Positions 50,741-63,043 of a stretch of DNA of 64,000 nucleotides are shown here, piece by piece. The translations under genes and the position numbers were made by a program. Under the pieces are notes generated by a model that made no database searches, had not been told where the DNA came from, and saw only the letters and a list, made by a program, of their open reading frames with translations. Source of the stretch: a virus; IMG/VR virus record IMGVR_UViG_3300017987_000005, positions 119,649-183,648 of that record; one strand, given 5' to 3'. Every line of letters begins with the position of its first letter. The stretch's first letter is position 1.

Positions 50741-50770
50741 ATACTAACTCTTAAAAAGAGATTGTCACCT

Positions 50771-51127
50771 TGGAGGTGGGGGGAATTGCACCCCCGTCCT
50801 GTAATGCCTCATGCATCGCGTCTACAATCATAGCCAGCGAGCGTCGTAATTTAGAAGCTAGTAACTTGTCTGGCTCATTCCTAGCGTTCGAGTCTTCGTT
50901 GGTTTCTCTGCTCTCAGACGGTAAAGACTTCCTCTTCCGAGCACAGCCGATACATTTACGTCCCTCGCTATAATATCGGCGTCATGCAGCAGGGACGGGT
51001 GCGTTTAAGCAGCCATTTTTACTGGTTTTGCATTTATCATGCTTGAGTGGATTGATGACGGGGCCAACCACTCATCCCCGGATTGCAGCTTAACAGTCTA
51101 ACATCCAGTCAAGCCTAAATCACCCCC
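50771..51127 (-). ncRNA. ssrA: tmRNA, tag (A)AKPVKMAA
   Basis: 5' GGGGGTG..GGCTTGAC; 3' GGACGGGGGTGCAATTCCCCC-CACCTCCA with G3.U; resume context ATAAAT-GCA, tag 51031-51005. Confidence 0.93.
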
Positions 51128-59820: not shown

Positions 59821-59899
59821 AAATACAGGGTTGCTGCAAAGCGCAACCCCAACTCCTTCTGCTCTTACATCAAAAATAAATGGCAGATGAGATAATATA

Positions 59900-60065: not shown

Positions 60066-60276
60066 TGGTGAGCATGACGGGATTCGAACCCGCACCGCAG
60101 CATTTAGGCCCAGCCGCTCATTAAGCTTTCCACTCTTTTCTCCCGTATATCCCTTCATCACTGCTTCCTCACCACAGAGCGAACTCTGGTCCCAGGTGTG
60201 ATAGACAGGTCAGCGAGCACTTACGGGTGCCTCGACAGGTCCACTTAAATCGTTCTACCAATTAAACTACATGCTC
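60066..60276 (-). ncRNA. tRNA-like RNA with ~130-nt structured insert replacing the anticodon loop
   Basis: GAGCATG/CATGCTC-ACCA, D arm, GCGGG-TTCGAAT-CCCGT; ATTTA/TAAAT stem encloses the insert. Confidence 0.8.
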
Positions 60277-60281
60277 AAACA

Positions 60282-60417
60282 TGGTCGCCAGCGGGGAGGT
60301 TCTCACTCCCATAGGCGGCTAACTCCTATTCAATCTCGATTCGAATCACCCGCAGCCGACGCGGTACACTTCGAATCTACAGCAGGGAATCGGTCACCCT
60401 GCTTGGCATCGCTGGCA
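60282..60417 (-). ncRNA. expanded tRNA-like RNA without a canonical anticodon loop
   Basis: GCCAGCG/CGCTGGC-GACCA, AGCAGGG/CCCTGCT, GATTCGAA/TTCGAATC, ATAGG/CCTAT, GGGAG-TGAGAAC-CTCCC. Confidence 0.75.
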
Positions 60418-60434: not shown

Positions 60435-60511
60435 TGGTTACCCCGGAAGGATTTGAACCTTCAACAGCGACATTCAAAGTGTCGTGCTCTAGCCAATTGA
60501 GCTACGGGGTA
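60435..60511 (-). tRNA. tRNA-Gln(TTG)
   Basis: CGACA-CTTTGAA-TGTCG, CCA. Confidence 0.9.
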
Positions 60512-60554
60512 TTATATATTTACGAAAGAACAACTGCAAACGATTGCAAAAAAA

Positions 60555-60630: not shown

Positions 60631-60656
60631 TGGTGTGCTGAGAGAGATTCGAACTC
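60631..60656 (-). pseudogene. orphan tRNA 3' fragment (T arm + acceptor + CCA)
   Basis: GAG-TTCGAAT-CTC..TCAGCAC-ACCA fused to the HNH stop codon. Confidence 0.7.
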
Positions 60657-61059
60657 AGTCGTCCCAATGAATAATCCTGTGACAGTTAGAGCAAACTACA
60701 TCGCACTTAGCTATCTCAGCGTCAATTCTTTCAAACGACCAACATCTCGCAACAGCTAACGACAATTCCGAATCTTTGTCCCCGGACTCGCGATGATGAA
60801 AATCCAAACATCTTGGGTCACTCATCCCGCACACTACACAAGGATGGCTGCTCTTATAATCAAACAAGTACTTCCTACGAATAGCTCTATTATCGCGATT
60901 AGTCTTAACACGCTTAGCTCTATCCCTACGGTAATACTTCTTAGAGTATTCAGCCATACACTCCTTACATCTCGTCTGGAGTCCGTCGGCCTGCTTACTA
61001 TTTTTAGAGAACAAAGATACGTCTTTACGCTTTCCACACTTTCCGCATAACTTATCCAT
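60655..61059 (-). CDS. HNH endonuclease with N-terminal Zn finger
   Basis: CGKC..CKEC; PCVVCG, LDFHH, EIAKCDVVCSNCHR. Confidence 0.9.
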   Translation of the reverse strand: MDKLCGKCGKRKDVSLFSKNSKQADGLQTRCKECMAEYSKKYYRRDRAKRVKTNRDNRAIRRKYLFDYKSSHPCVVCGMSDPRCLDFHHRESGDKDSELSLAVARCWSFERIDAEIAKCDVVCSNCHRIIHWDD

Positions 61060-61202: not shown

Positions 61203-61221
61203 GTATCAAGGCTGCAACTCA

Positions 61222-61262
61222 CACTGAAAAGTGCGGTACTCTATCCGTTGAGTTACCAGCCC
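61222..61262 (-). pseudogene. orphan 5' half of a tRNA-Lys(TTT)
   Basis: GGGCTGG-TA-ACTC..GAGT-A-CCGCA-CT-TTT, then the cloverleaf breaks. Confidence 0.7.
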
Positions 61263-61264
61263 GT

Positions 61265-61608
61265 CTACTTACGTTTTCGCTTTCGTTTGTCCACTATATC
61301 TATTCCTTTATAATCTTCTAAATACCACTTAATAACAGTCATAACTACGTTCCGAAATTCCACTCCCCACACATCGCAAATACTCTCATGCAATCGGGTC
61401 AGTATCGTCTTCGGCTTCCATCCATGCTTCAGCGAATCCTCTACTAAATCAATCCAATCTGGCAACCAGTTGCGTTGATGTAGATTATGGAAAATTACGC
61501 CAAAGGCAATCCGTGCCTATCAAAGAGCTTGAAGACTCCCTTCACAACGAGCTTCCCTTCCGGAGTCTTCCCTGAAAAAGAAAGCTTCAACTTCTTCTTA
61601 CGTCCCAT
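61265..61608 (-). pseudogene. frameshifted gene for a protein with an AlaRS-like FKLxDxxGxPL motif
   Basis: MGRKKK...GVFKLFDRHGLPL continues in the -1 frame at ~61500 as GVIFHNL...PDWIDL. Confidence 0.55.
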
Positions 61609-61702: not shown

Positions 61703-61712
61703 GTGTAAATCA

Positions 61713-61755
61713 TGGAGCGGGTATGGAGATTCAAACTCCACCTTCTAGCCTGGGA
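61713..61755 (-). pseudogene. displaced 3' half of a tRNA-Gly(CCC)
   Basis: CCC-AG-GCTAG..TGGAG-TTTGAAT-CTCCA-TACCCGC-TCCA; 5' half absent. Confidence 0.8.
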
Positions 61756-61759
61756 TGAA

Positions 61760-62437
61760 TCACATAACCCACTCTTCTTTTTCAAATCCTACAAACTCCT
61801 GAATAGCGCCATATAATTTTTGAATAACTTCCGTACAACAAACTGAAACATTACACAATCCATAAACATTTGATTTTCTTTTATGCTTAGAACTACTCGG
61901 ATATCTATCAACTTGCGGCTTCGTAAAATTATCAATAGATATACCTAAAAGCTCTGACCAATATTGTTCAATGTCACTGACAGTCAGCCCCTTATCAGTA
62001 TAACAAACAACATATGCTCGCATCTTATCACTAGAAACATTAAAGAACTTACGCAAAAACTTAACATAAAATAACATCATATTCTCGTCCATATTTGAAA
62101 ACTTAGCTTGGTTTCGCAACGTCTTACTTCCTTCTGCCCAATATAACATGCACCCTGCTATGAATTCAGGGTCTCGTTCCCGAGCAAGCTCTCTTCCATC
62201 ATTTTGCCACTGCTCTCTAAGCTTACGATAATATTTTTTCCTACGCTGCCCTTCAGCATATGGACCTTTTCTCGAATTATCGTAGATAATTTTCTCCTGC
62301 TCAGCAGTAAGCTGTATATCACGAACCCACACACTAACCGTCCCTTTGCTTACGCCAAGCTTATCAGCAATAACTGATAAAGGAAGTCCATCCTCCTTGC
62401 GCATCCTACGGGCTTCTTTACGCTCTTTAGCTTTCAT
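61760..62437 (-). CDS. HTH + LAGLIDADG-like endonuclease
   Basis: IADKLGVSKGTVSVWV HTH; GCMLYWAEGSK, FSN.D, YW. Confidence 0.75.
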   Translation of the reverse strand: MKAKERKEARRMRKEDGLPLSVIADKLGVSKGTVSVWVRDIQLTAEQEKIIYDNSRKGPYAEGQRRKKYYRKLREQWQNDGRELARERDPEFIAGCMLYWAEGSKTLRNQAKFSNMDENMMLFYVKFLRKFFNVSSDKMRAYVVCYTDKGLTVSDIEQYWSELLGISIDNFTKPQVDRYPSSSKHKRKSNVYGLCNVSVCCTEVIQKLYGAIQEFVGFEKEEWVM

Positions 62438-62832: not shown

Positions 62833-62840
62833 CTATTAAA

Positions 62841-63034
62841 ATCCAGTTCCGTAAGCGGGATTCTGTTCTATCCTATCATTTATCTTTGCCACTACCATTC
62901 CTCATCGGGCTGCTCACCCCCTCGGATAATTCGTGTTGCTCCCTCGGTGGTGCAATCGAGTGCAAACTCTCCCACCTTAAGCAGCGGAGTCCCGACTTTC
63001 CTCAGACTTACGTCCGCGATAGGTCGAACTGGAT
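62841..63034 (-). ncRNA. rnpB: minimal RNase P RNA (~194 nt)
   Basis: P1 ATCCAGTTC/GAACTGGAT; CR-I GAGGAAAGTCGGG; CR-V AACAGAATCCCGCTTA; GGAGCAA and AGATAAATGAT. Confidence 0.88.
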
Positions 63035-63043
63035 ATCTATTTA

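What the first reader, a model, noticed from the sequence alone, without database searches (positions are those of the whole stretch)
60066..60276. tRNA body with a pseudoknotted insert and short reading frame in place of the anticodon: a second tmRNA-like RNA?
Seen: intact acceptor (GAGCATG/CATGCTC, A73, CCA), D and T arms. The anticodon stem encloses ~130 nt containing GGCAC-CCGTAA-GTGCT whose loop can pair with downstream TACGG, a CAGAG-TTCG-CTCTG hairpin, and a purine-rich stretch reading GSSDEGIYGRKEWKA-stop (60168-60121, ends GCT TAA). No G3.U70; too short for a group I intron; no splice I can find restores an anticodon. Inference: a non-alanine trans-translation RNA, a tRNA decoy, or a carrier using tRNA processing to mature a cargo RNA.
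Basis: partly seen in the sequence, partly recalled or inferred. Interest (0 to 1): 0.85.

Follow-up and report, generated by a model that had tools for sequence, protein, structure and literature searches.

The report
tRNA-bodied Y-RNA-like phage RNA
This is a real 211-base RNA gene with a complete tRNA body whose anticodon arm is replaced by a long folded rod; it is most likely a partner RNA (a "Y RNA") for the Ro60-type protein that this phage encodes, not a second tmRNA and not a spliced tRNA.

Summary
Window 60066-60276 (minus strand) has a perfect tRNA frame (7-bp acceptor, D arm, T arm, A73, CCA) with about 150 nt where the anticodon arm should be.

The interpretation needs changing.
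- The insert folds as one nested rod, not a pseudoknot.
- The 15-codon frame is not conserved. A diverged relative keeps the nucleotides but has a 1-nt insertion and has lost the stop codon.
- No splice restores an anticodon.

The phage (183.6 kb) encodes a Ro60/Rsr (TROVE) protein and RtcB. The rsr gene lies 5.6 kb upstream on the same strand, followed by six Y-RNA-like genes. A 17-nt block of the insert is 16/17 identical to the protein-binding "handle" strand of one of them (2 of 1000 shuffles score as high).

In other TROVE-encoding phages I found 17 RNAs built the same way: an open-acceptor tRNA frame with a Y-type handle hairpin in place of the anticodon arm. 22 of their 26 pairs show changes on both sides.

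This copy is atypical. It lacks the family's invariant 7-nt motif, and models built from those RNAs score only its tRNA frame.

Published YrlA RNAs are circularly permuted with a closed acceptor, so this is a new topological variant of a known kind. Earlier notes of this scan saw similar rewired tRNA look-alikes in other phage Ro60 loci.

The parts
60270..60276 (-). acceptor stem, 5' strand (RNA nt 1-7)
   Evidence: 7/7 pairs with 60070-60076
60252..60267 (-). D arm (RNA nt 10-25), 4-bp stem, loop with G18 G19
   Evidence: It is close to the D arm consensus of the Rfam YrlA model shown.
60243..60248 (-). proximal stem of the rod, 5' strand (RNA nt 29-34)
   Evidence: Pairs with 60121-60126 in the minimum-energy fold. 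A 5-bp helix two bases upstream (nt 27-31 with 171-175) is an alternative that I could not exclude.
60205..60227 (-). rod strand that corresponds to the 3' strand of a Y-RNA handle (RNA nt 50-72): upper helix, internal strand starting CG, closing helix
   Evidence: nt 50-55 pair with 130-135 at P 0.98; nt 61-66 pair with 114-119 at P 0.91. The order of the parts matches the handle hairpin of the 17-member class.
60151..60167 (-). 17-nt block, 16/17 identical to the 5' handle strand of Y-RNA-like unit 5 next to rsr; holds the distal GN(C)GAA(N)G-type motif with U for C
   Evidence: Local alignment: 2 of 1000 dinucleotide shuffles score as high. Its 11-mer core occurs only three times in the 183.6-kb genome, the other two being Y units 5 and 6.
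60122..60149 (-). 28-nt purine-rich block (RNA nt 128-155), identical in the diverged relative apart from one inserted base; holds a second motif of the same type with G for C
   Evidence: It was not found elsewhere in 2.2 Mb of fetched loci or in IMG/VR.
60097..60117 (-). variable-arm hairpin (RNA nt 160-180), 5-bp stem
   Evidence: P 0.81. In the relative, one pair changed on both sides and stays paired, one G-U became G-C, and the loop-closing pair is lost.
60077..60093 (-). T arm (RNA nt 184-200)
   Evidence: The stem is unchanged in the relative and two loop bases changed.
60066..60076 (-). acceptor 3' strand, A73, encoded CCA
   Evidence: A73 and CCA are kept in the relative.
60282..60417 (-). 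neighbouring 136-nt tRNA-like RNA, 5 nt upstream, whose 5' end also resembles a Y handle strand
60511..60540 (-). promoter-like site upstream of tRNA-Gln, the neighbour RNA, this RNA, tRNA-Asp and tRNA-Val
   Evidence: Consensus scan only, 10 of 12 matches. A terminator-like hairpin lies at 59826-59851.

Best explanation
The locus encodes a non-decoding RNA of the Y-RNA kind, built in native tRNA topology. A complete tRNA body (acceptor, D arm, variable hairpin, T arm, CCA) carries a roughly 125-nt rod in place of the anticodon stem-loop. The rod displays Ro60-handle-type motifs in internal loops on its 3' side.

Inferred steps:
1. It is transcribed with the flanking tRNAs.
2. It is cut out by RNase P and 3' trimming like a tRNA, ending in its encoded CCA.
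3. It is bound through the rod by the phage's own Ro60/Rsr protein.
4. The tRNA body acts as the stable effector or docking module for tRNA-binding enzymes or PNPase. This fits a phage RNA repair and quality-control kit (Rsr, RtcB, about 45 tRNAs, tmRNA).

Shown here: the tRNA frame, the nested rod, similarity to the handle of the rsr-linked Y units, the existence of a covarying class with this architecture in other Ro60 phages, and purifying selection on the RNA rather than on the frame.

Not shown: expression, the RNA ends, and Rsr binding.
For: 1. Partner protein: the phage encodes a TROVE protein (Pfam E 3.9e-34) and RtcB (E 4e-114). The closest solved relative of the TROVE protein is Thermus phage phiLo Ro60 (E 3e-25).
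2. Y units: six Y-RNA-like units follow rsr. Two give partial Rfam YrlA hits (40.6 and 20.8 bits). All six have a 6/6-paired clamp that differs between units.
3. Sequence link: a 17-nt block of the insert is 16/17 identical to unit 5's handle strand, and 2 of 1000 shuffles score as high. Its 11-mer core occurs only in units 5 and 6 and here.
4. Position: same strand as rsr, 5.6 kb downstream, in one RNA gene cluster.
5. Class: a covariance model built from 7 tRNA-framed handle RNAs found 17 members in 13 of 82 phage TROVE loci. All lie on the TROVE strand within about 1 kb of the gene. 92.9% of cells are paired, 22 of 26 pairs changed on both sides, and 0 of 500 shuffles reach this. Cap length varies from 4 to about 50 nt, and several members encode CCA.
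6. Orientation: both motif copies lie on the rod strand that leads to the T arm, as in that class and in YrlA (PMC4201824).
7. Selection: in a relative with 78% DNA identity in a neighbouring enzyme gene and 40% protein identity in another ORF, the available 3' part is 82.6% identical. It has a 28-nt identical block, a compensatory change in the variable hairpin, an unchanged T stem and a kept CCA.
8. Precedent: M. smegmatis YrlA is cut by RNase P and receives CCA, giving the same open-acceptor shape in two pieces (PMC4201824).
Against: - The invariant 7-nt motif (UACUUCG) that follows the upper helix in all six local Y units and all 17 class members is absent here.
- A handle-only model built from the class does not find the rod. 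The full model scores 30.6 bits, no more than ordinary tRNAs, so only the frame contributes.
- The C of the published GNCGAA motif is replaced in both copies. The six rsr-linked units share this U variant.
- In the register used by the six units, the clamp pairs 5 of 6.
- The first 7 nt of the relative's contig do not match the end of the distal motif, so that motif may not be conserved.
- The distance to rsr is 5.6 kb. The published criterion is 4 kb (PMC4201824), and class members lie within about 1 kb.
Confidence: 0.5

Rival explanations
1. It is a functional tRNA-framed structured RNA, but Rsr is not its partner. The conserved purine-rich block and the rod serve another protein or an RNA target. 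The resemblance to the Y handle reflects local recombination with unit 5.
For: - The only part shown to be under strong constraint is the 28-nt block 60149-60122, which has no counterpart in the Y family.
- The family's invariant 7-nt motif is missing, and the class models do not recognise the rod.
- The distal motif may not be kept in the relative.
Against: - The match to unit 5's handle strand is reached by only 2 of 1000 shuffles.
- The architecture and motif orientation are the same as in 17 Rsr-linked RNAs.
- The RNA sits in the rsr RNA cluster next to another handle-like RNA.
- The conserved block itself holds a second GN(C)GAA(N)G-type motif.
Confidence: 0.22
2. It is a decaying chimera. 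A tRNA gene was disrupted by recombination with a Y unit or by mobile-element traffic in the array, and the product has no function.
For: - The array carries scars of homing-endonuclease activity: orphan tRNA halves lie next to HNH and HTH genes.
- The handle is imperfect and lacks the invariant motif.
- Folding energy is not better than shuffles.
Against: - Every stem of the tRNA frame is perfect and the tertiary-contact bases are in place.
- An orthologue is kept in the same place, before tRNA-Asp and tRNA-Val, in a relative whose neighbouring ORF is only 40% identical. It shows a 28-nt identical block, a compensatory change and a kept CCA.
Confidence: 0.1
3. It is an intron-bearing tRNA. 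The insert is removed, for example by cleavage followed by RtcB ligation, to give a decoding tRNA.
For: - ARAGORN can model it as a tRNA with a 113-nt intron.
- The phage encodes RtcB.
- Other phage tRNAs carry non-ribozyme inserts (earlier notes of this scan; L021 and L033).
Against: - The only modelled product has anticodon AAA, G32 and a mismatched stem with two spacer bases, and the phage already has tRNA-Phe(GAA).
- There is no Rfam intron or ribozyme hit at E up to 10.
- The 17 class members with the same design have no anticodon loop at all.
- The supposed intron-exon junction lies inside the most conserved block.
Confidence: 0.05
4. It is a second tmRNA-like RNA that tags proteins through the 15-codon frame.
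For: It has a free CCA end on a tRNA-like body, an open frame ending in a stop, and a phage that invests in translation rescue with its own tmRNA.
Against: - There is no G3.U70.
- The frame lies largely inside helices with P above 0.9.
- In the relative, a 1-nt insertion shifts the frame and the stop is lost while the nucleotides stay identical.
- Rfam tmRNA matches only the T arm at 12.4 bits.
- The structure is nested, with no pseudoknot ring.
Confidence: 0.02

Closest known systems
YrlA (Y RNA-like A; Rfam RF02553; Chen et al. 2014, PMC4201824; Wang et al. 2018, bioRxiv 10.1101/312249)
   Same: A Ro60/Rsr-linked RNA made of a handle with a GNCGAA-type motif plus a tRNA-like module. The module has conserved D and T arms, a variable-arm hairpin before the T arm, and no anticodon loop. 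It is encoded on the rsr strand, and the family is also found in phages.
   Different: Published YrlA is a circularly permuted tRNA. Its RNA ends lie at the handle, its acceptor stem is closed by a loop, and it lacks a free CCA. Here the ends lie at the acceptor stem with an encoded CCA, and the handle is a closed hairpin. The motif C is replaced, the distance to rsr is 5.6 kb, and the Rfam model cannot align this topology.
[quoted passage not shown]
   Same: The end product is a Y handle attached to a tRNA-like body with an open 7-bp acceptor stem and CCA.
   Different: In M. smegmatis that shape arises by cutting a permuted precursor into two base-paired pieces. Here one continuous gene would give it directly.
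Thermus phage phiLo Ro60 with Yrl1 and Yrl2 (PMC12135203; PDB 9KOP, 9L5Y)
   Same: It is the closest solved relative of this phage's Rsr. That phage Ro60 binds phage-encoded stem-bulge-stem RNAs carrying a CGAA motif and engages host PNPase.
   Different: Yrl1 and Yrl2 are described without any tRNA-like module or CCA end.
tmRNA (RF00023)
   Same: A tRNA-like acceptor and T-arm domain with a free CCA, with a large insert where the anticodon arm would be. The phage has a real one at 50770-51127.
   Different: This RNA has no alanine identity pair, has a full D arm, has no pseudoknots and has no conserved tag frame.
Engineered 'tRNA scaffold' for expressing recombinant RNAs (from my own knowledge, not checked in a paper here)
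   Same: A cargo RNA replaces the anticodon arm, so that tRNA processing and folding mature and stabilise it.
   Different: That is a laboratory design. This would be a natural use of the same principle.

Membership tests
Decoding tRNA (RF00005) | Cloverleaf frame: 7-bp acceptor, D arm, T arm, discriminator, CCA | tested here: met
   The frame alone scores 30.6 bits with model R1.
Decoding tRNA (RF00005) | 5-bp anticodon stem with a 7-nt loop, U33 and a usable anticodon, directly or after removal of an intron | tested here: not met
   There is no Rfam tRNA hit at E up to 10. The only intron model gives anticodon AAA with a poor stem.
tmRNA (RF00023) | G3.U70 alanine identity pair | tested here: not met
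   Position 3 pairs G-C.
tmRNA (RF00023) | Conserved tag reading frame ending in a stop | tested here: not met
   The frame is shifted by a 1-nt insertion and the stop is lost in the relative, while the nucleotides are identical.
tmRNA (RF00023) | Match to the family model and a pseudoknot ring | tested here: not met
   The match is 12.4 bits over the T arm only, against a threshold of 47. The fold is a nested rod.
YrlA / bacterial Y RNA (RF02553, PMC4201824) | GNCGAA(N)G motif on the strand that leads into the T arm | tested here: inconclusive
   Two copies lie on the right strand, but with U or G in place of C. The six rsr-linked units share the U variant.
YrlA / bacterial Y RNA (RF02553, PMC4201824) | Conserved tRNA-like D and T arms with a variable-arm hairpin before the T arm | tested here: met
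YrlA / bacterial Y RNA (RF02553, PMC4201824) | Permuted topology: RNA ends at the handle, acceptor stem closed by a loop | tested here: not met
   The topology is the reverse: open acceptor with CCA and a closed handle.
YrlA / bacterial Y RNA (RF02553, PMC4201824) | Encoded within 4 kb of the Ro60 gene on the same strand | tested here: inconclusive
   It is on the same strand in a continuous RNA gene cluster, but 5.6 kb away.
YrlA / bacterial Y RNA (RF02553, PMC4201824) | Bound by Rsr/Ro60 | not testable with these tools
   This needs a gel shift or pull-down.
   The order of parts is the same.
   The motif is absent. The handle-only model R2 gives no hit, and R1 aligns only the frame.
Group I intron in a tRNA anticodon loop | Ribozyme core and a splice that restores the anticodon loop | tested here: not met
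   There is no intron or ribozyme hit at E up to 10. The 113-130 nt insert forms a simple rod.

The most novel reading that the evidence does not exclude
The free, gene-encoded CCA end is used. The RNA is matured and charged like a tRNA; its long variable arm, A73 and intact elbow could suit an anticodon-independent synthetase. It thereby brings the phage Ro60 ring to EF-Tu, ribosomes or the tRNA repair enzymes (RtcB, CCA-adding enzyme). That would plug a Ro60 particle directly into translation or tRNA repair during infection.
Probability: 0.06. Interest if true: 0.85.

Novelty: new variant of a known kind. Interest (0 to 1): 0.5.

Why it matters
Bacterial Y RNAs are known as circularly permuted tRNA mimics without a free CCA end, and what their tRNA-like module does is still open. 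This locus and the 17 covarying relatives found here show the un-permuted form: a real tRNA body, cut out like a tRNA and ending in CCA, with the Ro60 handle grafted where the anticodon arm was.

- Origin: it offers a plausible starting point for how Y RNAs arose from tRNAs.
- Testability: it makes the role of the tRNA module testable, through processing, CCA status, charging, and binding to tRNA enzymes or PNPase.
- Phage biology: it adds a component to the RNA repair kits that large phages carry beside their tRNA arrays.
- Annotation: such genes are missed by default tRNA finders, or mislabelled as intron-bearing tRNAs.

Tried and rejected
- Rfam at gathering and at E 10: nothing at the locus beyond T-arm fragments.
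- Exact 25-mer (5' half) and 23-mer (conserved block) scans of IMG/VR: no hits.
- Phage GenBank blastn: only the flanking tRNAs matched.
- Neighbour-protein searches in IMG/VR and JGI metagenomes: relatives at 50% identity or less, or contigs that miss the locus.
- Exact-protein look-ups: six more assemblies of the same phage, all 100% identical over 5.5 kb, so there is no variation to analyse.
- Relatives at 58-81% TROVE identity and at 78% HNH identity: contigs end before the locus.
- Only L177 reaches the locus, and only its 3' 90 nt. The 5' half of the orthologue, and therefore covariation of the rod and the acceptor, could not be tested.
- Covariance models from the class (R1, R2) do not recognise the rod.
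- A helix of nt 27-31 with 171-175, extended by two short helices, was considered. It is about 10 kcal/mol worse than the minimum-energy fold, and the relative neither supports nor excludes it.

Full report
**What is there**

On the minus strand, window 60276-60066 reads as a complete tRNA frame. It has a 7/7 acceptor stem, U8, a 4-bp D stem with A14, G18, G19 and A21, a 5-bp T stem with a canonical T loop, A73 and an encoded CCA.

Default ARAGORN and the Rfam tRNA model do not call it. The product would have anticodon AAA, G32, a mismatched stem and two spacer bases, and the phage already has tRNA-Phe(GAA). So the frame is real and there is no credible anticodon.

The element sits 5 nt after another tRNA-like RNA and 10 nt before tRNA-Asp. 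It lies between a promoter-like site at 60540-60511 and a terminator-like hairpin at 59851-59826 (consensus matches only).

**Fold of the insert**

The ensemble puts RNA nt 50-55 with 130-135 at P 0.98, nt 61-66 with 114-119 at P 0.91, and a 5-bp hairpin just before the T arm at P 0.81.

The insert is therefore one long nested rod with internal loops, plus a variable-arm hairpin. Overall energy is no better than shuffles, so energy alone proves nothing.

The window is the last 64 kb of a 183,648-bp virus record with 123-nt terminal repeats. Across the repeat, the same minus-strand RNA cluster continues into the start of the record.

- That part holds a 500-aa TROVE protein (Ro60/Rsr; Pfam E 3.9e-34) and, further on, RtcB (E 4e-114).
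- The closest solved relative of the Rsr is the Ro60 of Thermus phage phiLo (E 3e-25).
- Directly after rsr lie six tandem units. Each has a shared 5' strand, a shared 3' strand and different tRNA-derived middles. Two give partial Rfam YrlA hits (40.6 and 20.8 bits).
- Their clamp (4 bp, a bulged U, 2 bp) is 6/6 paired in all six, although the letters differ between units.

These are Y RNAs in the sense of Chen et al. 2014 (PMC4201824). Another first-stage note on this genome reached the same reading.

**Link between the insert and those units**

- A 17-nt block of the insert (60167-60151) is 16/17 identical to the 5' handle strand of unit 5. Only 2 of 1000 dinucleotide shuffles score as high.
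- The 11-mer core occurs three times in the genome: units 5 and 6, and here.
- The opposite rod strand starts its internal segment with the same CG and ends with a closing helix. It is 3 nt shorter, is not significant by sequence alone, and pairs 5 of 6 in the units' register.
- The order along the RNA is: tRNA 5' half, handle 3' strand, cap, handle 5' strand, variable hairpin, T arm, acceptor. This is a YrlA with its topology turned round. The handle is closed and the acceptor is open.

**Is that architecture real elsewhere?**

I fetched 82 phage loci around TROVE genes and found RNAs of 121-177 nt built the same way.

- Seven of them align cleanly. RNAalifold gives acceptor, D, T and handle helices, with 18 of 26 pairs showing compensatory changes.
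- A model built from them (R1) finds 17 members in 13 loci. All are on the TROVE strand and within about 1 kb of the gene.
- On the 17: 92.9% of cells pair, 22 of 26 pairs changed on both sides, 0 of 500 shuffles reach this, and slid controls pair at 34-50%.
- Caps range from a tetraloop to about 50 nt, and several members end in an encoded CCA.

The open-acceptor, tRNA-framed Y RNA is therefore a genuine and recurrent class.

In the papers I could search I found no description of it. YrlA is described as a permuted tRNA with a closed acceptor and no free CCA. The exception is M. smegmatis YrlA, which RNase P cuts and which then receives CCA (PMC4201824; bioRxiv 10.1101/312249). The phiLo Yrl RNAs have no tRNA module (PMC12135203). 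Earlier notes of this scan did report phage Ro60 loci with tRNA look-alikes wired in different ways.

**Where this copy departs from the class**

- All six local units and all 17 class members carry an invariant 7-nt motif right after the upper helix. This RNA does not.
- The handle-only model R2 does not find the rod.
- R1 gives 30.6 bits, within the range of ordinary tRNAs, so only the frame scores.
- The element lies 5.6 kb from rsr.

Membership of the class is therefore architectural and partly sequence-based, not model-based. I keep the confidence moderate for that reason.

**Evidence of selection**

The same phage occurs 100% identical in at least six other assemblies, which gives no variation to analyse. 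A diverged relative (L177) has 76% protein and 78% DNA identity in the metallophosphoesterase gene, and only 40% protein identity in another ORF. Its contig begins inside the orthologue and continues with tRNA-Asp and tRNA-Val, as here.

The alignable 86 nt are 82.6% identical, with this pattern:

- A 28-nt purine-rich block (60149-60122) is identical apart from one inserted base.
- In the variable hairpin, one pair changed on both sides and stays paired, one G-U became G-C, and the loop-closing pair is lost.
- The T stem is unchanged.
- A73 and CCA are kept.

That pattern speaks against a dead relic.

No frame in the relative reproduces the peptide with a stop. The constraint is on the RNA, and this removes the tag-peptide idea.

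Two caveats apply. The relative's first 7 nt do not match the end of the distal motif, so that motif may not be conserved. The 5' 120 nt are missing, so the rod and the acceptor could not be tested for covariation.

The conserved block contains a second motif of the GN(C)GAA(N)G type next to the proximal stem. It might be the true protein contact. This is inference only.

**Verdict**

| Reading | Probability |
|---|---|
| Y-RNA-type partner of the phage Rsr, in native tRNA topology, matured by tRNA processing | about 0.5 |
| The same kind of tRNA-framed RNA with a different partner | 0.22 |
| Decaying chimera | 0.1 |
| Intron-bearing tRNA | 0.05 |
| Second tmRNA | 0.02 |

The remainder is left for readings I did not think of.

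Noticed in passing
window 62836-63035 (-): A 200-nt stretch between two tRNA-Thr genes matches bacterial RNase P RNA class A end to end (model 1-367) at 61 bits, E 3e-17. This is below the family threshold of 100. It may be a strongly reduced phage RNase P RNA.
   Followed up: no
window 60282-60417 (-): A 136-nt RNA lies directly upstream of the finding. It has a 7-bp terminal stem, a T-arm-like hairpin abutting it and an ACCA end. Its 5' end resembles the Y handle strand of a unit seen in locus L026. It is possibly a second Y-like RNA in the same small operon.
   Followed up: partly
L013:1000-1890 (-) (start of the same virus record); L186:1835-2800: Six tandem Y-RNA-like units follow rsr, with different tRNA-derived middles. 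In a relative with 81% identical Rsr (L186), the orthologous units keep the clamp through paired changes.
   Followed up: partly
window 61705-61760, 60636-60720, 61215-61270 (-): Orphan tRNA halves lie next to an HTH gene (61760-62437) and an HNH gene (60655-61059). They look like scars or replacement parts of endonuclease-driven insertions into tRNA-Gly(CCC) and tRNA-Lys genes.
   Followed up: no
L021:18531-18640, L021:18647-18753, L021:12064-12192: In a phage whose Rsr is 50% identical, tRNA-Ile(GAU), tRNA-Arg(UCU) and a tRNA-Ser(GCU)-like gene keep a normal anticodon loop. Each carries a 36-48-nt insert right after the loop, made of a hairpin followed by a GCGAAG- or UCGAAG-type motif. This looks like a mini Y handle using the anticodon stem as its upper helix.
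   Followed up: no
L033:12588-12760: A tRNA-Tyr gene downstream of another phage's TROVE gene has a 102-nt AT-rich insert in the anticodon loop, with no Y-type motifs.
   Followed up: no
L013:8993-9874 (-), next to RtcB at L013:7846-9015: A metallo-beta-lactamase-fold protein matches the anti-Pycsar Apyc1 family (E 2.5e-34) immediately upstream of RtcB.
   Followed up: no
window 50770-51127 (-): Rfam finds the phage tmRNA at 100.8 bits, but ARAGORN calls no tmRNA in the window or the whole genome. Its 3' end lacks the full CCA in the alignment.
   Followed up: no
L191:850-1010: In a relative carrying a 78% identical HNH gene, the sequence after that gene differs from the window. It holds a handle-like strand followed by a T-arm-like hairpin, so the RNA content downstream of this endonuclease gene varies between relatives.
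   Followed up: no
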